A DNA stretch of 13,371 nucleotides from a virus. The notes beneath the pieces were generated by a model that ran no database searches, was not told the DNA's origin, and saw only the letters and a program-made list of their open reading frames with translations. Location: the UHGV virus genome UHGV-0090146. One strand, 5' to 3'. Of this stretch, positions 1 through 13,067 are shown in pieces. Each line of letters starts with the position of its first letter. Position 1 is the first letter of the stretch. The position numbers were made by a program, and so were the translations under genes.

Positions 1-1
1 C

Positions 2-2308
2 TTGCGCGATGGCGATGTAGTTAATGTTTATTGCCAGCCGTCCGGCGCAATCGGCGACCTTATCGGCGCAATACTAAAGCCAGTAACGAAGATTTTCTCT
101 TTTCTTACACCGAAAGTATCCACGCCAAAAACAGATACCAGTTCAAAAACATCACCTAACACCAGCCTGAAGTCACAGACAAACATTGCGCGAAATGGCG
201 AGGCGCGACCTGATAACTTCGGACAGATTCGCGCGTTTCCTGATTTGCTTCAGGAATCATTGTTTGAATACATCAACAATATTAAATATGTCACCGAGTT
301 CATGAACTTTGGACTAGGAAAATATGATGTTTCCTCTGTGCGCTACTCGGAATCCAATCTTGGTTCACTGGCTGGTGCGAGTTACACCATTTATCAGCCT
401 GGAGAAGTTATTCCGGTTGTTCTTGAGCCTTACGCATTTGATGATGTGGATGGGCAGGAGCTTTATGGGCCGAACGACACAAACTCTGTTGTAATTGAGT
501 CAGCGACAACAACATCAGTTACCAGCACTGATTTTGCTGGTGGACAAATAGCTGTAAAAATACCAAAAAATTCCGCTTTCGATTACTTTGTTGATCTGGT
601 TATGCCTCATGATGTGGTTTTTAAACTAAACATCACTTACGCGCTTGGAGGTGGCGCGTCGGTCACTGAAAACGTCACCTTATCAGGTAGTCTTGTGTCA
701 GCATCAGAAACAGATGATGGAAATATTCCACCTGTTGATTACTGGTACACATTTATAATTAATAACATCAACTACTCAGGTGCACCGATATCATCTCTGA
801 ATGGCGTAACCATCAATAACACTTACTTCAACCTTACCGATAACCAACCTCTTGTTTCAGGTCCGTATTTCTCACCAATAGAAGGAGATCAGCTGTGGTT
901 CCACTTTGTTGCTCAATTTGGTGAAGATCAGGGTGCTATTGTCAAGGCTGAGTGGTGGGCGGTGGATGATGATAACGTGCAGATTGCAGGCTCATACCAA
1001 TCAACCACATATACCTTTGTGGCTGGCGGGGCGGATACCTACTATTACACAAGGAAAAAAACTCCATCATATGGGAATGCCAGATACGCTGTTCAGTTTA
1101 CAAGGACTAACAACAGCACACAGCAATCGATCATTCAGCTTGATGAAGTCCATTCAATCGTCACCCGTAACAATGTTTCGTATCCAGATGACACGGTAGT
1201 TAAAGTCATTGTCCGCGCCACCGAGAACGCCACAGGCAGCCGTGACAGGAAATACAATGCATTAATCACGCGTCACACGATAGGATATGACCGTGATGCT
1301 GGCACTGTGCGATATACGCTTGCGCCTTCACGCAGTTTTGCTGATGCCGTGCTCCATAACTGGCTTATTACCGCTGGCAATCCAGAAAACACGATCGACA
1401 TCGTGAGGTTATATGAAATTGCCGACAGCCTGCCTGATGAGCGTCTTGGTTATTTCGATTACACGTTTGACGATGAGGATAAGAGCATAGGCGAGCGTTT
1501 GCAGACCATCTGCGATGCGGCTCGTGTCACTGCGTTTTGGGATGATGGCGTGATGAGCTTCTCCCGTGATGAAAAGCGAGAATATCCGGCAACTGTATTC
1601 AACACCAGAAATACGCAGAGCGACGGTTACAAGCTAAGTTATGATATCAGCCTTCCCGGAACTTATGATGGCGTTAACGTCGAATATCGCGACCCAACAA
1701 CGAATAAGCAGGCCAACGTTTACTATCGAATTACCGATGGTGGCATTGTCGAAGGAGAGCCGACTAAAGCGAAGAAATTCGATATGCTTTATGTTCGCAA
1801 TCGCTATCAGGCTGTTGATCGTGCAATCCTTGAGTGTCGTCGCCTGATTTATTCACGCCGCAGCATGGAAATTAAAGCACTGGCAGACGGAGAATGGGTT
1901 AACGTTGGCGACATGATTCAGGTTGTCGACATATATGATGATGTGCAGCAGACTGGCGTTATTGAAGAGCACAATGGTAACGTATTCACGACAAGCGAAC
2001 AGCTAAGCGCTGATGATAATCTTTATGTTGTGATTACCAGTTCAGACGGCAGCGTGTCAGACAGATTGCCAGCAACAGTAACCGGATTACATACATTCAC
2101 CTGCAACCTGCCTTCTGATTTTCAGCTAAACATATGGGATGGAACTAATGTTCAAAGTGAATCCCGTTACGTGATGAGCACAGAGAAAGAACTTGACACT
2201 ACTTTGTGGGTTGTCAGCCAGAAGAATCCTGGTAGTGACGGAACGACAACACTGACGATGAGTGAATACAGCGACGACATGTACGAATATGCCATCCCGT
2301 CATCGTGA
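2..2308 (+). CDS. Tail tip / host-specificity protein, lambda gpJ-like (5'-truncated, C-terminal 768 aa in window)
   Basis: ORF is open from the window edge, so the N-terminus lies upstream. Blocks such as [53 protein letters not shown] and [16 protein letters not shown] resemble the central part of lambda J as recalled from memory. Stop TGA at 2306-2308, followed by AAGGAG and the tailspike start. Confidence 0.7.
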
Positions 2309-2347
2309 TACAATATACATCAAATTCACAAAGGAGCATTTATTATA

Positions 2348-4261
2348 ATGGCTACCACACCAACCAATAAACCAATTCCGTCAGAAGACCCTCGTGACCT
2401 GAAATTTAATGCCGGAAAGATTGACGAGGTAGTGACATCTGACGCGCATTACTACACCGACCGCTTCGGTGTGCGCCGCTGGACAATTGCTGGATTTCAG
2501 CACACCGCAGAAGAAGCAATCAGTAACTATGGATACATTACGATGGACAGCTTCGAAGATGGTGCGACACTGACGCTACCTAATCAGGTTTTGCGTTATG
2601 AGGCAACTGGAGAATATTACCGTTGGGATGGTGAGTTTCCTAAAACCGTTTCTGTAGGTTCTACCCCTGAAACTGCTGGCGGTATTGGGATTGGCGCGTG
2701 GGTTAGTGTTGGCGATGCGTCATTGAGGCATGAACTTGAAATCACAAGCGCTATTCCTTTTGTAAGGCCAGAAAATTTCGGTGGTGTAGGTGATGGAGTG
2801 ACGGATGATACAAATGCAATAAAAGCTGTTATAGCAACTGGGAAACCAATTTCTTTAGTAGGTAAAAAGTGGCTAATAACATCTACCATAGAATTTCCTG
2901 ATGGATATGCTGTTGATGCAAGGTCGTCAGAAATAGTTGCGGACACAGGCTCTGCACCTATCTTCCTTTTTAAGGGTAATAATCTTGGTATGCATTTCAC
3001 AGGCTCATTAGTGAGAGGGACTGCTGGTGCATTCATGAAGTTGGAAGGCCAGACAGATGCGCCTACAGCAAGCAATCAATATGCTAAATTATTAAAACTT
3101 AGTGGTGTCCATATCTCCTCGGCAACTATAGATGCCGCTCTTATTTTCGATAAGGCAGTACGAATAATATTCATTGATAGTTGTGTGTTCTTTTGCAGAA
3201 ACGGAATAATTAGCAATGGTAAGTCTGTAGAGATTACCATTCAAAAATCAGTTATATACGGTGCCACGAGTGATACTGATACTTCTGGTATAAAAATAAC
3301 AAGTTCAGGTGGTGCAAGCAAGTACAGTGAGGGGTGGCATATTTCAGACTGCACAATAGATAATTTCGAAAATACAATTGATCTATCCGATATATTTGTA
3401 TTCACCTTAAATGGTGGCTACACGGCATGTAATTCTAATACCGGATATGCTATTACCGTGCGCGGACCGACTACAACAACTCACTGTCGAGATCTTTATT
3501 TTAACGGCATGTTTGGCGGTAAAATTCGCTTCCTTGACCAAACTGCTGGTCCTGTAACTATGCATGCCAGGATAACAGGAGAACTCCTGTTCACTAAGGC
3601 AGGAACGTGTCTTGCTATTGGGGCAAACATGGCGGCAATTGATATCAGCAACTTAAAGATTGTATCTGCAACGCCTGGTAACACTGCCATCTCTGTAGCG
3701 AACGGGAGTGCCAATATTAATATCCGTGGGATTAGTACAGATGCAACTCTTGGGGCAGGGATTATATTTAATGGGGAGTCAGGCAGTAACTGCTCGATTT
3801 CTGATTTTTCATATTCTGGTTCTGGAGAGGCTTTATCACTTGCTAGGCCAGTTAAGCTTTCCAACGTTCCTACAGTTGGTAGCGAAACTTTGAATTGGTC
3901 AATAAAGTACGATTATGTATCTGCATCAAAAGATGTTGCAGTTGGGTCTTACATAAATCAACTGCAAATGACTATTGCAAGATATAGCAAGATTAAGATT
4001 AATATTAACCTCGCATATTCAGGTGGGGCAGCAAGCAATTCTCAAGTTATTGGAATAACAGTCCCTACTGGGGTGGTTCTGCCAAATGGTACGAACTCGA
4101 TGCAGTTCACATTACCAGCAACTGCTGGAACATTAACTATGAGCATTGATGCAACAACAACGCTAGACTTCAAGAATCTGTCATTCAGCATCGATAACAG
4201 AGCTGGTAACCAACTGCGTATTTTGGCCGGCTCTCACTTGTCTGTATCTTTAGATAATTAA
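2348..4261 (+). CDS. Tailspike / tail fiber with pectate-lyase-like right-handed beta-helix (probable polysaccharide depolymerase, receptor-binding protein)
   Basis: 637-aa ORF with AAGGAG at 2331-2336 upstream of ATG 2348. Motif FGGVGDGVTDDTNAIKAVIATG is typical of the Pectate_lyase_3 / beta-helix N-cap (established family signature). The first ~130 aa form a separate N-terminal domain. A terminator follows. Confidence 0.85.
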   Translation: MATTPTNKPIPSEDPRDLKFNAGKIDEVVTSDAHYYTDRFGVRRWTIAGFQHTAEEAISNYGYITMDSFEDGATLTLPNQVLRYEATGEYYRWDGEFPKTVSVGSTPETAGGIGIGAWVSVGDASLRHELEITSAIPFVRPENFGGVGDGVTDDTNAIKAVIATGKPISLVGKKWLITSTIEFPDGYAVDARSSEIVADTGSAPIFLFKGNNLGMHFTGSLVRGTAGAFMKLEGQTDAPTASNQYAKLLKLSGVHISSATIDAALIFDKAVRIIFIDSCVFFCRNGIISNGKSVEITIQKSVIYGATSDTDTSGIKITSSGGASKYSEGWHISDCTIDNFENTIDLSDIFVFTLNGGYTACNSNTGYAITVRGPTTTTHCRDLYFNGMFGGKIRFLDQTAGPVTMHARITGELLFTKAGTCLAIGANMAAIDISNLKIVSATPGNTAISVANGSANINIRGISTDATLGAGIIFNGESGSNCSISDFSYSGSGEALSLARPVKLSNVPTVGSETLNWSIKYDYVSASKDVAVGSYINQLQMTIARYSKIKININLAYSGGAASNSQVIGITVPTGVVLPNGTNSMQFTLPATAGTLTMSIDATTTLDFKNLSFSIDNRAGNQLRILAGSHLSVSLDN

Positions 4262-4270
4262 CTATCAACT

Positions 4271-4298
4271 AAAACCCCGCTTCGGCGGGGTTTTTTTT
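4271..4298. terminator. Bidirectional rho-independent terminator between convergent tailspike and ssb
   Basis: Hairpin CCCCGC-TTCG-GCGGGG (4275-4290) preceded by AAAA and followed by TTTTTTTT, so it can terminate on either strand. Confidence 0.8.
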
Positions 4299-4302
4299 AT
4301 CA

Positions 4303-4803
4303 TCAGAATGGAATGTCGTCATCGAAGTCCATCGGAGGCTCATTTCCTCCTTGTGGGCTTTGTTGTTTTGGTTGCTGCTGTTGCGGTGTTCCCCATCCTC
4401 CTTGAGGTTGCTGTCCTGATTGCTTGCGTGATTGTTGCTGACCAGAATCATCGCGCTTGCCGCCAAGCATCTGCATGACGCCACCCATCTGTGGAATGAC
4501 AATCTCAGTGGTATATCGGTCTACGCCGTTGCTGTCAGTCCATTTGCGAGTGCGAAGCTGACCTTCGATATAAACCTGCGAGCTTTTGTGAAGGTATTCT
4601 CCTGCAACTTCCGCAAGTTTCCCGAAAATGACTACGCGATGCCACTCTGTCTGTTCTTTCTTTTCTCCTGTCTGCTTGTCTTTCCACTGCTCAGATGTTG
4701 CAACGGAAAGATTGGCAATAGCAGAGCCAGATGCAGAATATTTAACTTCCGGATCGTTACCGAGAGTGCCGACAATAATTACTTTATTTACGCCGCGTGC
4801 CAT
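4303..4803 (-). CDS. ssb: Single-stranded DNA-binding protein
   Basis: 166 aa, near-collinear with E. coli SSB: [49 protein letters not shown], a Gly/Gln/Pro-rich linker and the acidic C-terminal tip [20 protein letters not shown] 9 nt upstream. Confidence 0.95.
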
Positions 4804-4806
4804 TTA

Positions 4807-5847
4807 TTAAAATCCTTCAATTGGAGTTGGTTTATGTTCGATTTTCGCTTCTTCCTGCGGTTCTGGCTGCTGTGGTTGCGGTTTAGCCAGTTTGGCAGGG
4901 TTGAAATTATCCTGCGGAGTTATTACCACAGGAGATAATTGCTCATCATTGATGAAAGACTCAATGCGATCGTATTCTGCAGCAGAAGCAGCCAGAGAAG
5001 GCCAGATTGCGCGAATCTTATCTTTCAGGTTATCAGGTATTGATTTTGCTTCTTCCTTCAAGCCTTCCATGCCTTTTGCGGCGGAAAGCTGAAGTCGTGA
5101 GCGCCATGACTCAAATTCTTCGTCAACTTTAACGCCAGAGTCCACCCATTTGATGAGTCCGCGACCGTGAGCCTCTCCAATATACCCATGACGAACGCTT
5201 TCACGACCAGATTCAAAGAAGATTGGGCGTAGCTCTTCTGGTAATTTGGTAAACTCCTGAATTTTGCCCCCATCGTGCATCATCATGCTCACGGTCATTT
5301 CGAACATGAAGTCTTTCTCGCACACTGGCTGCAACCCCAGCGATACAGGCTCCTTCGGATTTGCGAAGTCAGTTTTCTGGCGAGCACGAAGACATACGAT
5401 GATATGCATATTGCTTTGCAGCATAGCATTCATGAACTTCTTGTGTTCAGCTTTGGCACGCTTCCAGTCAGCCATTTTTTTTCCGTTAAGCAGAGGCTTT
5501 TCAGCAATCTCAGTGCAACTTCCTTCTCCTTCCCATTCGTGCGAGCCAGAATCAATAACAAGGACCTTAACGCCAGCAGCCTGAAACTCTTCAATGGCCT
5601 GACGGTAGCGAGCCGGGCTGAATGGAGCATACATATCAGCGTGCAGGAATTTACCATCAAGGATGTTTGAATACAGACGACCGCGACCGTTTTCAGTATC
5701 AAGGAATCCGATTTCTTCTGGTGAGTCAACCATCCCGCGAGCCAGCTTAAGTGCGCTATATGTTTTTCCGCTACCAGACTGACCGGAAATACCGATGACC
5801 ACGCGAGAACCTGAACGCTCTGCTGGTTTAATATTGAGAATACCCAT
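4807..5847 (-). CDS. RecA-fold / AAA_24 (Sak4-like) ATPase, probable recombination mediator
   Basis: Walker A GISGQSGSGKT near the N-terminus and Walker-B-like KVLVIDSGS. Pro/Gln-rich C-terminal tail. ORF extends to 5856 (GTG), but ATG at 5847 has the best spacing to a GAGGTG RBS. Stop lies 3 nt before the ssb start. Confidence 0.6.
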   Translation of the reverse strand: MGILNIKPAERSGSRVVIGISGQSGSGKTYSALKLARGMVDSPEEIGFLDTENGRGRLYSNILDGKFLHADMYAPFSPARYRQAIEEFQAAGVKVLVIDSGSHEWEGEGSCTEIAEKPLLNGKKMADWKRAKAEHKKFMNAMLQSNMHIIVCLRARQKTDFANPKEPVSLGLQPVCEKDFMFEMTVSMMMHDGGKIQEFTKLPEELRPIFFESGRESVRHGYIGEAHGRGLIKWVDSGVKVDEEFESWRSRLQLSAAKGMEGLKEEAKSIPDNLKDKIRAIWPSLAASAAEYDRIESFINDEQLSPVVITPQDNFNPAKLAKPQPQQPEPQEEAKIEHKPTPIEGF

Positions 5848-5864
5848 TTGCATCACCTCACTAA

Positions 5865-6821
5865 TTATAAATTAAATTGCTTCTTGAACCATTCAGGCGT
5901 TTCCATTTCGATGACAGGATTACCCATTGAATAACCCGGCCACGAATTAGCTTTTTTGCACGCCTTGTAAATTTCCATTGCACCATTCAACTGAATGCGA
6001 CCGATTCGTAATTGCTCTTCAGTCAAACGAATCAAAGCAGGAATGAACGGCGCTTTCTTTTCCTGCACGAGAAGATTCACAGAGCGTGGAGCGTGGCCGT
6101 ATGCCGCAACAAACATATCGTGTTGCATAGCCATTTTCATAAAGTAGCCAAGTCGCGCAGCATGACGGAAAAACTCATCAGGCTTTGCGCTAACTGCCGT
6201 TTTGTAGTCAATGATGTCACCACCTTTTGTCAGGCAGTCAAAACGAACCTTTGCCTTTTCTCCGTAAAGCTCACCGAGGATTGACACTTCAGCGTAAGCT
6301 CCGGCAAGAAGACTGCTGTAATAGCTGTTTGCGTGGATTACAGCGCGCATTTGCTGAATAGCGTCGTAGTCACCACCTTCGAGCATTTTCTTTCCTGCCG
6401 CAGCTTTTTCAGCTTCTTCACGGATGACATCGTAAATCTTCACTGGTTCGCCAGTTGCACGAATGATTTTGACCACCTCAGTTTTAGACTTCCCTGAGAG
6501 TCCTTTGATGCCTCGTTCTTTCGCCCATGAATTCATATCAGCAGTAGTTACCAGTACCGTGGGTTTTCCATCTTTGTCTTTTGGAAAATCATCTACAACT
6601 GGCATACGAGCATATTCAGCATCGAAACGTTCAGGTTCAAGCAGAGCTGTATGGCTTCCTGTGCCGAAAATTAGGGCTTTTGACTGCTCATCTTCTTCGT
6701 CTTTGTAGCGCCAAGCTGCGGGACATCTGTCATAAATGTTCCACAGGCCAGAACCATTAATATGCTCGGTGTCGGCGTGGTATTGCTCATTGGTTAATTC
6801 ATTATTGAAATAGACTTTCAT
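5865..6821 (-). CDS. PD-(D/E)xK family nuclease (RecE/Cas4-like exonuclease candidate)
   Basis: ORF to 6833 (GTG); ATG at 6821 is preceded by GAGG at 6-nt spacing. Contains RFD...GDIIDYKT, consistent with a D...(D/E)xK nuclease core. Lies between the ATPase and VRR-NUC genes. Confidence 0.55.
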   Translation of the reverse strand: MKVYFNNELTNEQYHADTEHINGSGLWNIYDRCPAAWRYKDEEDEQSKALIFGTGSHTALLEPERFDAEYARMPVVDDFPKDKDGKPTVLVTTADMNSWAKERGIKGLSGKSKTEVVKIIRATGEPVKIYDVIREEAEKAAAGKKMLEGGDYDAIQQMRAVIHANSYYSSLLAGAYAEVSILGELYGEKAKVRFDCLTKGGDIIDYKTAVSAKPDEFFRHAARLGYFMKMAMQHDMFVAAYGHAPRSVNLLVQEKKAPFIPALIRLTEEQLRIGRIQLNGAMEIYKACKKANSWPGYSMGNPVIEMETPEWFKKQFNL

Positions 6822-6858
6822 TGTTAACCTCACTCATCATCACGTAAATGAATCTACA

Positions 6859-7284
6859 TCAATCCACATCAAAAGGCAAGCCAAAATAGAAAAGCGTGGC
6901 TTTTTTTAGTTCATCAAGTCCGTAAGCGATGGCGGCATAATGACCAAGCCTGCACATCTCAGTTAACACGGACGATTGCTCCTTGCTCACCCTGCTTTTG
7001 CTTTTGTCACGTCGCTTTGACTCAATCATCCCGCAACTGTGCTTCACTCCCGGCGTCATTATCACATTGTCGCCTATTCCAGTCTTAACACCCATCTTCT
7101 GGCGCTTCAGCACAAACTGCACCCTGCTTGATGTACCAGTTTCGTTTGGCACATGAAACCACAGAACATCAGGGAAGCGATGTTGCATCCATGTACCGTA
7201 ACCCATCTGGTCAGTCTCTTCTTTCGGACACTCCCCACGATAACCGCTATCAAACACCCATATACCACTGTCAAGCTGCTTCAC
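6859..7284 (-). CDS. VRR-NUC domain nuclease
   Basis: 141 aa with WFHVPNETG ... GIGDNVIM ... MIESK, matching the VRR-NUC / PD-(D/E)xK pattern. GTG start preceded by AGGAG with 6-nt spacer. Overlaps the helicase 3' end by 14 nt. Confidence 0.65.
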   Translation of the reverse strand: MKQLDSGIWVFDSGYRGECPKEETDQMGYGTWMQHRFPDVLWFHVPNETGTSSRVQFVLKRQKMGVKTGIGDNVIMTPGVKHSCGMIESKRRDKSKSRVSKEQSSVLTEMCRLGHYAAIAYGLDELKKATLFYFGLPFDVD

Positions 7285-10253: not shown

Positions 10254-10670
10254 TTATTCATTGAACTCTGGCGCTTGAGTCCAGAAGGCTACATTTCGCA
10301 GCGACTTACCCGTGTGATTGCACCAGTATATTCCTGAGTCATCATACTTGGCAGTAACCTTGACTCGATCAGCATCAATAATAACAACCTCCTGCCCATC
10401 ATTAGGGTCGAAAAGACGCGCATCTTTCCAGTTAGCAATCTCATTAAGGGAAAGAAGCACATAACCGGGAAGATAAGCTTCGACATCAGCGATGTGAACT
10501 ATTGTTCGCTCCGCTCTCTCTCCTGTGTAGTCTCCATTCCACTCATAAAGAATAATCGTGTCTCCAACCTTAAAATCACGATCGTTCTTTCTTAGCTCCG
10601 CCTTCTTGTGTCCGGTAACTACAGGCCAGAAGTGTTCAGGTAAGATTTTTAGTTCGTGTTTTTTGCTCAT
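10254..10670 (-). CDS. ASCH / DUF3850-like (PUA-fold) domain protein with C-terminal extension
   Basis: N-terminal MSKKHELKILPEHFWPVVTGHKKAELRKNDRDFKVGDTIILYEW fits the DUF3850/ASCH pattern as recalled. ATG at 10668-10670 has GAGGA 8 nt upstream and lies 1 nt from the stop of the upstream 65-aa gene. The in-frame extension to 10700 is less likely. Confidence 0.6.
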   Translation of the reverse strand: MSKKHELKILPEHFWPVVTGHKKAELRKNDRDFKVGDTIILYEWNGDYTGERAERTIVHIADVEAYLPGYVLLSLNEIANWKDARLFDPNDGQEVVIIDADRVKVTAKYDDSGIYWCNHTGKSLRNVAFWTQAPEFNE

Positions 10671-10671
10671 T

Positions 10672-10869
10672 TCAAACATCCTCATAACACCAATATGCAA
10701 CGCAAATTATTTCAACCAAATCATTTGATGATAAAAATTTATTACCATCATAAATTGCGTGAATTCTTTCACCATCAACAGTTAATGCCATAACATTTCT
10801 TCCTATCTGCGGACGCCAGAGATAGCAATCAAACCATTCAACATCATACCAATCATCTTCTGGACTCAT
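10672..10869 (-). CDS. Hypothetical protein (65 aa), translationally coupled
   Basis: ATG overlaps the stop of the 491-aa gene (ATGA) and is preceded by GAGGT. Its stop lies 1 nt before the ASCH gene start. No recognisable motif. Confidence 0.55.
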   Translation of the reverse strand: MSPEDDWYDVEWFDCYLWRPQIGRNVMALTVDGERIHAIYDGNKFLSSNDLVEIICVAYWCYEDV

Positions 10870-12341
10870 TTCAACCTCGGATTTATGTGCACAGTGTTTC
10901 CGATAAATACGCAGTAACCATCCTCTTCAAGTGATGGCAATACACTTGACCTGAGGCGGTCGTAAATTTTAGGTATTCCTTTGAATGGCCTAACATTTTT
11001 AAGTGAATCATAAAGCCACTTTACCGTTACGTTTGTTTTTCCTTTCTGAGCGGCAGAGCGTAGCTTTTCGGCAACAACATCAAATTCAGAACGCTCGCCA
11101 GCATATCCATTTGATTCCACGGCGTCGGTGAATGTTTTTGTCAGTGCGTCATAAACGCTGATAGCGCGACTAATTTCATTTTCACAGATAATTTTTGACC
11201 TCTTTCCTCCATCACACCAGTTTTCAGCAGCGTGAAATATTGCTGCCAGGCGGATTATTTGCTTATCAGCTTTACCCATTGCACCACGAAGAAGAACATG
11301 GTCCCACTTACCGCCTGGAAGGAAGTTTTTCTCCCACTGGTTTCGCAACATGCCGATCATTCTTGCTGAATCATTGTGAAGAGTCAGTCTTGTTTTTTCT
11401 GCTGACACAACATTATGTATAAATCTTGCATATTCCGACCTCAAGCTGTCTGGCATTGGCTTGCTTACAGGGCAGTCATTAACCATGTCCCAGTGTTCGC
11501 GATAGCCAAGCATTGATTGCTCGCGCAACATCAGGAAACGTTCAGAAAGACCGTTCCCCCTGTCGCCAGCGGCAAGAATGGCATCAATACTTTCATCCTG
11601 CGCAATCACACTTATGTTTCCAAGCACGTAACCAGATGAAACGCCACGACCAACACGAGCAGAGCCAATGAATCCTCCATCCCAGCCCTTCAGGATGACT
11701 TCGGCGTTTGCCTTTCCACCTTCTTTTCCGTAAGAGAGGCCAAGGCATGTGTTAAGGACGCTTGCCTCGTCACTTATCAGGTTAAAAAACCCACCTTCAT
11801 GGATGGCCTGATGCTGAACAGCCTCCGGCGTTGCGTCCGTCAGTGGATATGTAATCGTATAAAGCTCTTCCAGCTTCTCCTTTTCCCGAGCAATATCATC
11901 GCCGATTAGTGCCTTTGCATTCTGATTACTGGCCTCTTTATATGCCTTCATCAACTCTTCAATGCGAAGATTTATTTTTATGATCTGCTTTTCCATCTTT
12001 TTGGAAAGATTGTCATATTCAATCTTCACCGGATTCATGTGCATTGAGTTGATGGCGGTTTTCCCTGCTGATGGAGGCTGAGAAGTAACCACGTAAAGAG
12101 AAACTGGAAGTTCTGAATGGTAATACTCAACGCTAAAGTTTCTCGTCATTGCGCTGGCAACGCACCCAAGCAAATGCATGAACGATGTATTTATTGGGAA
12201 CTGAACGGCACGAGCTGCAGCGATTGCATAACGAGACAGCAAATCAGTCCGGTGCTCACTGGTAAGTTCTGTTTCTGAGTACGTTACATCACGCTCCTTA
12301 CCTTCCTTGATGTCAAGCCACATATTTGAGCTTGGTGTCAT
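10866..12341 (-). CDS. Hypothetical protein (491 aa) with degenerate P-loop NTPase-like motifs; possible DUF3987-like replication-associated protein
   Basis: Long ORF with SQPPSAGKTA (GKT, P-loop-like) and, about 90 aa later, FNLISDEAS (hydrophobic stretch plus DE, Walker-B-like). No canonical SD before ATG 12341 and an alternative Met at 12323, so the start is uncertain. Family assignment is from memory only. Confidence 0.8.
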   Translation of the reverse strand: MTPSSNMWLDIKEGKERDVTYSETELTSEHRTDLLSRYAIAAARAVQFPINTSFMHLLGCVASAMTRNFSVEYYHSELPVSLYVVTSQPPSAGKTAINSMHMNPVKIEYDNLSKKMEKQIIKINLRIEELMKAYKEASNQNAKALIGDDIAREKEKLEELYTITYPLTDATPEAVQHQAIHEGGFFNLISDEASVLNTCLGLSYGKEGGKANAEVILKGWDGGFIGSARVGRGVSSGYVLGNISVIAQDESIDAILAAGDRGNGLSERFLMLREQSMLGYREHWDMVNDCPVSKPMPDSLRSEYARFIHNVVSAEKTRLTLHNDSARMIGMLRNQWEKNFLPGGKWDHVLLRGAMGKADKQIIRLAAIFHAAENWCDGGKRSKIICENEISRAISVYDALTKTFTDAVESNGYAGERSEFDVVAEKLRSAAQKGKTNVTVKWLYDSLKNVRPFKGIPKIYDRLRSSVLPSLEEDGYCVFIGNTVHINPRLK

Positions 12342-12414: not shown

Positions 12415-12614
12415 CACTGAACCCTTAAAATTGTTAATTCGCATGTGTCCCTGTTGTATTTTGTCCAGTACACAAAGTCGCTTTTCTTCGAAATTTTGGA
12501 CAGGCACATCCTGAAAATAAGCACCTCAACACCTATCGCCTTAAGATTTATAATCTTTTTCTCGTCAACCCTCATTCTTGAGACTATATCGCGAACTCGT
12601 TTCATGTTTGACAT
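12414..12614 (-). CDS. Possible small ORF (66 aa from MSNMKRVRDIV...)
   Basis: Sits directly downstream of a strong minus-strand promoter candidate. Weak RBS. Basic protein with no recognisable domain. Confidence 0.3.
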   Translation of the reverse strand: MSNMKRVRDIVSRMRVDEKKIINLKAIGVEVLIFRMCLSKISKKSDFVYWTKYNRDTCELTILRVQ

Positions 12615-12650
12615 TTTTACCGCCAACCGTGGTTAATCATGGTGTGAAAG

Positions 12651-12679
12651 ATTATATAAAGATATAAACGAAATGGCAA
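12651..12679 (-). promoter_or_regulatory. Sigma70-like promoter for the minus-strand operon
   Basis: On the minus strand: TTGCCA (plus 12674-12679), exact 17-nt spacer, perfect TATAAT (plus 12651-12656). About 30-40 nt upstream of the first minus-strand ORF. Confidence 0.55.
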
Positions 12680-12740
12680 CCATATCATTCTTGGCGTGGT
12701 TTAAGCGACTAAATGGTTATCTGTGGGTAACGTGGGTAAG

Positions 12741-12767
12741 GCGTGGGGCAACCAACCTTCCCCACGA
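12741..12767. repeat. 27-bp repeat copy 1 (GCGTGGGGCAACCAACCTTCCCCACGA), internally palindromic
   Basis: Identical to the copy at 12929-12955. Contains inverted arms CGTGGGG / CCCCACG separated by 11 nt. Confidence 0.85.
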
Positions 12768-12928
12768 AGTTTTCCTATAAGTATATGTAATATAATAAAA
12801 TTATTATTATTTGGGTTAATGGGTACAAATGGATTATTTGAATATATTTATAAGGGGATGGGTATGAAATCTTCCCCTTTTTACCCACGAAAAATAAAAA
12901 CATTCAAATCAATTATTTACGATGAAAA

Positions 12929-12955
12929 GCGTGGGGCAACCAACCTTCCCCACGA
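12929..12955. repeat. 27-bp repeat copy 2 (identical to 12741-12767)
   Basis: Exact 27/27 match to copy 1, 188 bp away, in the same orientation. Confidence 0.85.
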
Positions 12956-13008
12956 CCTGCCCCACGGGCAAAAATTTACCCCACGAGCACGTTTTTAACG
13001 CATTCCTG

Positions 13009-13037
13009 TTGACGTGGAATCATAGCTGATGTAGATT
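13009..13037 (+). promoter_or_regulatory. Sigma70-like promoter for the rightward small-gene operon
   Basis: TTGACG (13009-13014), 17-nt spacer, TAGATT (13032-13037). GAGGGTGAAGAG RBS and ATG at 13068 lie about 30 nt downstream. Confidence 0.5.
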
Positions 13038-13067
13038 GAACTCATCGAAACAAACGAGGGTGAAGAG

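What the first reader, a model, noticed from the sequence alone, without database searches (positions are those of the whole stretch)
2348..4261. Tailspike appears mosaic: AT-rich beta-helix module joined to a more GC-rich N-terminal anchor
By eye, roughly 2348-2750 (N-terminal anchor domain) has a composition like the upstream J gene. From about 2800 to the stop the sequence is visibly AT-richer and uses ATA and AGA/AGG codons repeatedly. The junction coincides with the start of the pectate-lyase-like beta-helix (FGGVGDGVTDDTNAI). This is the signature of horizontal swapping of a receptor-binding/depolymerase module, so this gene is the likely host-range determinant.
Basis: partly seen in the sequence, partly recalled or inferred. 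Interest (0 to 1): 0.5.

Follow-up and report, generated by a model that had tools for sequence, protein, structure and literature searches.

The report
Mosaic phage tailspike, swapped receptor-binding module
The tailspike gene of this Kagunavirus-like phage joins the tail-attachment end typical of its own phage group to a sugar-degrading, host-recognising module that also occurs in unrelated phages and prophages; this is a real but well-known kind of module swapping.

Summary
ORF 2348-4261 (637 aa) has an anchor (aa 1-130) with GC 49% and GC3 0.42. The rest has GC 41% and GC3 0.32, the lowest in the window (p=1e-7 against the other genes). All 19 ATA codons lie after aa 158.

The interpretation also holds, mainly because the two parts have different relatives. 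The anchor matches about 60 Kagunavirus/Jersey-like siphophages (77-88% nt), and that similarity stops at 2725-2727. From 2761 to 4248 the gene is 90% nt identical to the tailspike of an epsilon15-like (Uetakevirus) prophage of E. marmotae, E. fergusonii and E. coli. It is 71% aa identical to the tailspike of podophage PAS61, whose host is E. coli O146.

New details:
- There is a second breakpoint near 3824.
- The left crossover falls in a DNA stretch conserved across phage genera.
- The module is AT-rich in every background, so AT-richness is a family trait and not proof of recent arrival.

Exchange of this module subtype was already published (Pas et al. 2023, 2024). This is a new member of a known kind. 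It is probably an O-antigen depolymerase, perhaps O146-specific.

The parts
2331..2336 (+). Shine-Dalgarno AAGGAG, 11 nt before the ATG at 2348
   Evidence: read directly from the sequence
2348..2716 (+). N-terminal anchor, aa 1-123. It consists of a Kagunavirus-specific first ~55 aa plus a Tail_spike_N domain (PF18668, aa 57-123). It attaches the spike to the siphophage tail tip.
   Evidence: Pfam E=2e-18. 85-86% aa identity to HC6 and Bas81 tailspikes, stopping at aa 130-134. PDB sequence hits cover only this part.
2608..2735 (+). [quoted passage not shown] It is the likely homologous-recombination crossover zone.
   Evidence: 71-81% nt identity in tailspike genes of Kayfunavirus/T7-like, Kuttervirus (Det7), rV5-like and Gamaleyavirus phages, always ending at about 2716-2736. 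The window/L004 crossover lies between 2636 and 2748. It probably corresponds to motif one/two of Pas et al. 2023 (PMC10408124); I could not compare the sequences, because the motifs are published only as sequence logos in a figure.
2717..2752 (+). Interdomain linker, aa 124-135 (SLRHELEITSAI). It is about 15 aa shorter than in most homologues, which carry a KPTGASYIGIPxGG segment here.
   Evidence: AlphaFold pLDDT below 50 for aa 124-135; alignment A1
2728..2760 (+). Left junction interval of the exchanged cassette
   Evidence: blastn: Bas81 and HC6 homology ends at 2725-2727; prophage L005/L006 homology starts at 2761
2761..3823 (+). Right-handed parallel beta-helix body, aa ~139-492. It is the presumed polysaccharide-binding and cleaving part, with conserved acidic residues E295, E328, D338, D382, E412, D432 and D465.
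3824..4258 (+). C-terminal beta-sandwich domain, aa 493-637, with an evolutionary history separate from the beta-helix
   Evidence: Against PAS61, synonymous-codon identity jumps from 0.37 to 0.76 at aa 493 (LLR 26.6) and aa identity from 62% to 92%. In the model the boundary falls near the end of the beta-helix.
4249..4271 (+). Right junction interval of the cassette (last codons, stop codon 4259-4261 and a short spacer)
   Evidence: prophage homology ends at 4248; HC6 backbone homology resumes at 4272
4271..4294 (.). GC-rich hairpin with A- and T-runs on either side. It is a likely bidirectional terminator between the convergent tailspike and SSB genes and belongs to the Kagunavirus backbone.
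   Evidence: terminator scan; sequence; HC6 homology from 4272

Best explanation
ORF 2348-4261 encodes the tailspike of a Kagunavirus-like siphophage. It was assembled by recombination from separately circulating modules.

The parts:
- aa 1-~130 are the lineage-specific anchor, which plugs the spike into this phage's tail tip.
- A short flexible linker follows.
- aa ~139-492 form a right-handed beta-helix that probably binds and cleaves a surface polysaccharide in an acidic groove.
- aa 493-637 form a C-terminal beta-sandwich.

The beta-helix plus C-domain cassette (about 2730/2760 to about 4250/4270) belongs to the receptor-binding-domain subtype of E. coli O146 phage PAS61 and of Uetakevirus prophages of Escherichia. 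It was exchanged horizontally.

The left crossover lies in a stretch of anchor-end DNA that is conserved across many phage genera. This points to homologous recombination during co-infection or with a resident prophage. The right end lies just before the backbone's terminator.

The cassette sets host range. The most likely target is an O-antigen, and O146 or a close relative is the best guess.

What is shown: the mosaic structure, the breakpoints, the fold and the composition. What is inferred: enzymatic activity, the substrate, the recombination mechanism and the direction of transfer.
For: Discordant relatives.

The same module occurs on at least four kinds of anchor, plus one further N-terminal arrangement:
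- Kagunavirus/PF18668: window, P0001, P0002, P0004, P0008.
- Uetakevirus type: P0003, P0006 (the PAS61 cluster), P0123. The loci carry an O-antigen acetylase next to the spike.
- P22 Head_binding PF09008: P0018, in a P22-like immI/gtrA context.
- T7 tail-fibre N-terminus PF03906: P0122, P0025, P0007.
- P0009 has an unassigned N-terminus before a PF18668 domain.

Recent spread is visible between two Kagunavirus backbones. Window and L004 are 85-90% identical in J, anchor and SSB, but 98.9% identical over 2738-3820. There are 49 mismatches in 2392-2635 and then 1 in 2636-2900.

The crossover DNA is conserved across genera, as reported by Pas et al. 2023.

Function of the homologue:
- PAS61 infects only the O146 strain of a 16-strain panel and makes haloed plaques.
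- The E. fergusonii strain carrying the 90%-identical prophage spike is predicted to be O146 (PMC11522302).
- The PAS61 RBD grafted on an R2 tailocin gave weak activity on the O146 strain (PMC11762384).
Against: - No activity or host data exist for this phage. The window comes from an unnamed metagenome contig.
- The beta-helix is only 62% identical to that of PAS61, so specificity could differ. The O146 call for the prophage host is an in-silico serotype taken from a paper.
- Pas et al. 2023 note that one RBD subtype can occur in strains of several serogroups, so a capsule or other shared glycan cannot be excluded.
- The module DNA found no match in 5,426 complete E. coli genomes.
- The direction of transfer is unknown.
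- The structure model is a monomer; the trimer was not modelled.
Confidence: 0.88

Rival explanations
1. The compositional step reflects only the amino-acid make-up and codon habits of beta-helix domains. The gene evolved vertically with a fast-diverging C-terminus, and no horizontal exchange took place.
For: About half of the GC drop is at codon position 1, that is, amino-acid content. The module is AT-rich in all backgrounds, so AT-richness is not a marker of recent arrival. The within-gene GC3 change-point is only borderline.
Against: The C-terminal parts of backbone relatives (HC6, Bas81) show no detectable similarity at all. A Uetakevirus prophage that shares nothing else with the window is 90% nt identical over 2761-4248. 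The module is 99% identical between two backbones that differ by 10-15%.
Confidence: 0.03
2. The module is a capsule (K-antigen) or other exopolysaccharide depolymerase or lyase rather than an O-antigen-specific enzyme. Alternatively, it is a non-catalytic binding spike.
Against: The homologues sit in Uetakevirus and P22-like temperate phages, next to O-antigen-modifying genes (acetylase, gtrA). That is the classic arrangement of O-antigen-specific phages. PAS61 is restricted to the O146 strain and its RBD retargets a tailocin to it. A second host is predicted to be O146.
Confidence: 0.2
3. The module was ancestral in Kagunavirus or T7-like lytic phages and moved from them into the temperate Uetakevirus and P22-like phages. 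On this view the window is the donor lineage, not the recipient.
For: The closest relatives of the module, sharing even the unusual short linker and the anchor end, are lytic-type phages: P0001 (Kagunavirus) and P0122 (T7-type), both within one 90% cluster.
Against: The module's GC3 (0.32) departs from the Kagunavirus backbone (0.44) just as it does from the Uetakevirus backbone. The family is most abundant in Escherichia and Citrobacter prophages; the PAS61 cluster alone was seen on 421 contigs. Nothing here polarises the event.
Confidence: 0.3

Closest known systems
Tailspike of Escherichia phage vB_EcoP_PAS61 (Uetakevirus; WMX19002.1), the O146 RBD subtype of Pas et al. 2024
   Same: aa 132-637 align with PAS61 aa 241-745 at 71% identity with a single 1-aa gap. 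The seven proposed acidic residues are conserved, one as E to D. The predicted beta-helix plus C-domain architecture is the same, and the module is AT-rich in both.
   Different: The anchor is entirely different (epsilon15-type, 240 aa, against Kagunavirus-type, 130 aa). The beta-helix is only 62% identical, with saturated synonymous sites, while the C-domain is 92% identical. PAS61 is a temperate podophage; the window is a siphophage of the lytic type.
Uetakevirus-type prophage tailspike of E. fergusonii RHB38-C01, E. marmotae and E. coli (WP_249418615.1 / MED9192466.1; P0124 / P0003)
   Same: 90% aa and 90% nt identity over the whole module. This is the closest named relative of the module.
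   Different: The anchor is of the epsilon15 type. The first ~45 aa of the module (window aa 132-176) are much more diverged (nt identity 56-80% over 2738-2937). It has the longer KPTGASYIGIPQGG linker that the window lacks.
Tailspike of Escherichia phage 26 (Kagunavirus; UAW06957.1, MZ832314)
   Same: Same genus-level backbone type and the same RBD subtype. It was already cited as evidence of Uetakevirus-Kagunavirus RBD exchange (PMC11522302).
   Different: Only 52.5% identical over the module. The window's module is far closer to the prophage and PAS61 versions, so it represents a separate acquisition or variant.
Modular tailspikes with a Tail_spike_N (PF18668) domain, e.g. CBA120 TSP1/TSP3, Det7 and K1F-type spikes
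   Same: A shared Tail_spike_N domain followed by a beta-helix. DNA at the end of that domain is conserved and is where similarity stops.

Membership tests
Phage tailspike with Tail_spike_N anchor (PF18668) | Match to PF18668 above the gathering score, in the N-terminal part | tested here: met
   66.5 bits against a cutoff of 25, aa 57-123
Pectin-lyase-fold (right-handed parallel beta-helix) tailspike / depolymerase | Right-handed parallel beta-helix fold of the central domain | tested here: met
Pectin-lyase-fold (right-handed parallel beta-helix) tailspike / depolymerase | Homotrimer with inter- or intrasubunit catalytic acid pair; polysaccharide-cleaving activity | not testable with these tools
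   Only a monomer was modelled. Acidic residues are conserved, but activity needs biochemistry.
PAS61-type (O146) RBD subtype, as defined by Pas et al. (>=30% aa identity over the RBD) | >=30% aa identity over the receptor-binding domain to a member of the subtype | tested here: met
   71% to PAS61, 90% to the RHB38-C01 prophage protein, 52.5% to phage 26. The subtype criterion is quoted in PMC10408124.
PAS61-type (O146) RBD subtype, as defined by Pas et al. (>=30% aa identity over the RBD) | Conservation of the proposed acidic pocket residues (PAS61 E404, E437, D447, E491, E521, D541, D573) | tested here: met
   Window E295, E328, D338, D382 (E to D), E412, D432, D465
PAS61-type (O146) RBD subtype, as defined by Pas et al. 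(>=30% aa identity over the RBD) | Specificity for the E. coli O146 antigen | not testable with these tools
   The host of the window phage is unknown. This is inferred only from homologues.
Kagunavirus-like (Guernseyvirinae) siphophage backbone | Collinear nucleotide similarity to members of the genus across the genome | tested here: inconclusive
   88-90% identity over 73-80% of the 13.4-kb window to HC6, 6947, ST1UNAM, Bas79 and IME207. The gene order J, tailspike, SSB, recombinase, exonuclease, helicase, primase is shared. The whole-genome criterion cannot be applied to a 13-kb window.
Endosialidase-type spikes with a self-cleaving C-terminal chaperone (Peptidase_S74, PF13884) | A C-terminal PF13884 domain | tested here: not met
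   No PF13884 hit in the window protein, although several relatives with other modules have one. The End_N_terminal hit is sub-threshold (16.4 bits against 26.3).

The most novel reading that the evidence does not exclude
The cassette may not be one unit but two independently exchangeable sub-modules: the beta-helix and the C-terminal beta-sandwich, with a breakpoint near 3824. The family may also actively maintain an AT-rich, ATA-rich composition in every phage background, through some selective or mutational regime specific to receptor-binding modules. Candidate causes are expression timing, avoidance of host nucleases, or residence in a common AT-rich gene pool. If so, low GC3 could serve as a general, alignment-free marker of circulating RBD cassettes.
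Probability: 0.15. Interest if true: 0.4.

Novelty: new member of a known kind. Interest (0 to 1): 0.25.

Why it matters
The cassette is the most likely host-range determinant of this phage. It also links an uncultured Kagunavirus-like phage to a serogroup of Shiga-toxin-producing E. coli (O146). A strictly lytic-type backbone carrying this module could be of practical use for typing, biocontrol or tailocin and phage engineering.

The precisely mapped breakpoints give concrete splice points for engineering chimeric spikes:
- the left crossover in the conserved anchor-end DNA;
- the second breakpoint at the boundary between the beta-helix and the C-domain;
- the right end before the terminator.

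Conceptually it adds one more well-resolved example to an established picture and does not change it.

Tried and rejected
1. Site-specific rare-codon pausing. I tested whether ATA codons occupy the same Ile positions in diverged homologues. They do not (Fisher p 0.29-0.96 for PAS61, L007, L010 and L011). Co-occurrence is seen only with the 88%-identical L005, as expected from shared ancestry. Rejected: the bias is compositional, not positional.

2. Sequence-level identification of the catalytic module. Pfam, PHROGs and the PDB profile search hit only the first ~170-190 aa. The fold had to come from structure prediction.

3. Module DNA in complete E. coli genomes: no match. Species-representative genomes gave only a 31%-identical Roseateles locus. 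Neither helped to infer the host.

The IMG/VR scan gave only ~40-kb contigs, which I did not annotate.

5. A self-cleaving C-terminal chaperone was considered for the conserved C-domain and rejected: there is no PF13884 hit.

6. A GC3-only change-point inside the gene is only borderline (p=0.05) and peaks upstream of the homology junction, at 2576. That position is nearer the window/L004 crossover (2636-2748) than the 2727 boundary.

Full report
**What the window is.** The 13.4-kb window is 88-90% identical over 73-80% of its length to Kagunavirus-like siphophages: Escherichia phages HC6, 6947 and Bas79, and Salmonella phages ST1UNAM and IME207. The gene order is a J-like tail protein (2-2308, phrog_469), the ORF in question (2348-4261), and then, on the minus strand, SSB, an AAA_24 recombinase-type protein, a PDDEXK exonuclease and a helicase; a primase (plus strand) and a DUF3987 protein (minus strand) follow. 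The ORF has a good ribosome-binding site (AAGGAG, 2331-2336) and encodes 637 aa. Its exact protein sequence exists only in unnamed ENA metagenome contigs.

**Checking the observation.** The compositional step is real.
- The anchor part (2348-2737) has 49.0% GC and the remainder has 41.0% (Fisher p=0.005).
- The difference lies at codon positions 1 (0.56 vs 0.44) and 3 (0.42 vs 0.32), not at position 2.
- Module GC3 (0.318) is far below the pooled GC3 of the nine other genes (0.443, p=1e-7).
- No 300-codon stretch of any other gene is as low as the highest stretch of the module.
- The lowest-GC 1.5-kb window of the entire sequence starts at 2752. An unconstrained scan for the best AT-rich segment in 1-7000 returns 2806-4275, matched by 1 of 100 block shuffles.

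All 19 ATA codons lie after aa 158, and AGA/AGG make 7 of 13 Arg codons there. Against the rest of the window these enrichments are only borderline (p about 0.05-0.06), and the helicase gene is just as ATA-rich. The shift is also uneven, with 3451-3900 back at 45% GC. A GC3-only change-point test inside the gene is marginal (p=0.05).

**The decisive test: different relatives for the two parts.**
- A blastn search of the gene finds about 60 Kagunavirus/Jersey-like phages at 77-88% for gene nt 1-380 only. For nt 520-1901 it finds a single record, the Uetakevirus podophage PAS61.
- At protein level, aa 1-130/134 are 85-86% identical to the HC6 and Bas81 spikes and nothing beyond that aligns.
- aa 132-637 are 71% identical to PAS61 aa 241-745.
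- A tblastn search of the module against 50,697 phage records finds only PAS61, phage 26 (52.5%) and a partial Aeromonas hit.
- In the large protein collection the closest full-length relatives are P0001 (96%, a 46.8-kb Kagunavirus-like contig) and P0002. The closest module on another anchor is P0003/P0124, a 746-aa prophage protein of E. marmotae, E. fergusonii and E. coli, 90% identical over the module.
- Its DNA (L005/L006) matches window 2761-4248 at 90.1%. Backbone relatives match up to 2725-2727 and resume at 4272-4303.

The cassette boundaries are therefore 2728-2760 on the left and 4249-4271 on the right. The right boundary sits just before a strong hairpin terminator (4271-4294) that belongs to the backbone.

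**One module, many anchors.** Alignment A1 and Pfam scans show the same module fused to several N-termini:
- the Kagunavirus anchor;
- the epsilon15/Uetakevirus anchor, in loci with an O-antigen acetylase next door;
- the P22 head-binding domain, in a P22-like Arc/Mnt/Ant...gtrA context;
- T7 tail-fibre N-termini, with or without a Tail_spike_N domain (P0122, P0025, P0007);
- in P0009, a further unassigned N-terminus ahead of a Tail_spike_N domain.

**Recent movement and the crossover site.** The window and the collinear Kagunavirus contig L004 differ by 10-15% in J, the anchor and SSB, but are 98.9% identical over 2738-3820. There are 49 mismatches in 2392-2635 and then a single one up to 2900. 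The left crossover for that pair therefore lies between 2636 and 2748.

This stretch (about 2608-2735, the end of the Tail_spike_N domain) is conserved at 71-81% nt in spike genes of T7-like podophages, Kuttervirus, rV5-like myophages and Gamaleyavirus. Similarity always stops at about 2716-2736. It probably corresponds to the 'motif one/two' that Pas et al. 2023 proposed as a recombination hotspot. I could not compare it with their motifs directly, because they are published only as sequence logos. Homologous recombination in this shared DNA is thus the most likely mechanism. That is an inference.

**More than two parts.** Against PAS61, codon identity at identical amino acids is 0.37 (saturated) for aa 132-490 and jumps to 0.76 from aa 493 (LLR 26.6). 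Amino-acid identity goes from 62% to 92%. The C-terminal 145 aa therefore share a much more recent ancestor than the beta-helix, which means a second breakpoint near nt 3824.

Finer patches also exist. The first ~45 aa of the module diverge from the prophage version. The last ~220 nt diverge 7-12% from both L004 and L005.

**Structure and function.** The AlphaFold2 model has mean pLDDT 87.8. It gives an anchor, a low-confidence linker at aa 124-135 (exactly at the junction), a long beta-helix and a C-terminal beta-sandwich.

The seven acidic residues that Pas et al. 2024 proposed for PAS61 map to E295, E328, D338, D382, E412, D432 and D465. E295 and D338 are invariant across the 27 module-bearing rows of A2 checked, and E328 and D465 in 26 of them; only the most distant row departs at E328.

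Published data on the homologue:
- PAS61 lyses only the O146:H21 strain of a 16-strain panel and makes halos.
- The E. fergusonii lysogen carrying the 90%-identical spike is predicted to be O146.
- The PAS61 RBD on an R2 tailocin gave weak activity on the O146 strain.

An O-antigen depolymerase, possibly specific for O146, is therefore the best-supported function. I put this at about 0.5-0.6 for O146 itself. A capsule target is not excluded.

**What the AT-richness means.** The module is AT-richer than its anchor in all five backgrounds examined: GC3 0.26-0.33 against 0.36-0.45 in the window, L004, PAS61, L005 and the P22-like L007. This includes homologues so diverged that synonymous sites are saturated. 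ATA makes up 36-48% of Ile codons in all of them, but at non-conserved positions. The composition is thus a persistent trait of this module family. It is not a fading footprint of a recent donor, and it is not a set of programmed rare-codon sites. Why the family stays AT-rich is unexplained.

**Novelty.** Tailspike modularity with horizontal RBD exchange is textbook material and has been catalogued for E. coli phages (Pas et al. 2023). Exchange of this very RBD subtype between a Uetakevirus (PAS61), a prophage and a Kagunavirus (phage 26) was reported in 2024. The window adds a new Kagunavirus-borne variant that is much closer to the prophage version, and it yields finely mapped breakpoints. 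It is a new member of a known kind, of modest interest.

Noticed in passing
window 4807-5856 (-): The AAA_24-type recombinase gene is shared with HC6 and Bas81. In the otherwise collinear Kagunavirus contig L004 it is replaced by an ERF-family (PF04404) gene at L004 12451-13113. Window/L004 homology breaks at 4905 and resumes at 5845. This is a second functional-module swap in the same window.
   Followed up: partly
window 6822-6854 and 4762-4775, against L003 8767-9436 and 6148-6741: HC6 carries an HNH endonuclease gene and an extra hypothetical ORF at two sites where the window has only 33 and 14 nt. These look like presence/absence of a homing-endonuclease-type insertion.
   Followed up: no
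window ~2608-2735: About 130 nt at the end of the Tail_spike_N coding region are conserved at 71-81% nt in spike genes of T7-like, Kuttervirus, rV5-like and Gamaleyavirus phages. Similarity always ends at ~2716-2736. This is a cross-genus recombination linker.
   Followed up: yes
window 2-2308 (+): The J-like tail gene is itself patchy against L004: 99% identity at 1001-1200 but 85-88% at 1401-2200. It is only ~82% identical to HC6 and Bas81, whereas the replication genes are 90-94% identical.
   Followed up: no
window 10676-10865 and 12422-12722: These stretches have no blastn match in the closest relatives (HC6, L004). They hold small ORFs and low-GC DNA (36-37% GC at 10501-10950 and 35-37% at 12601-13050).
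   Followed up: no
window 4040-4261: The last ~220 nt of the tailspike gene diverge 7-12% from both L004 and the prophage L005, while the preceding 200 nt are 98-99% identical to L005. This is a further small mosaic patch at the 3' end.
   Followed up: partly
L012 (Roseateles terrae NZ_JACHXO010000002.1) 3001-4959: This was the only hit among species-representative bacterial genomes. It is a 31%-identical, full-length relative of the spike in a betaproteobacterium.
   Followed up: no
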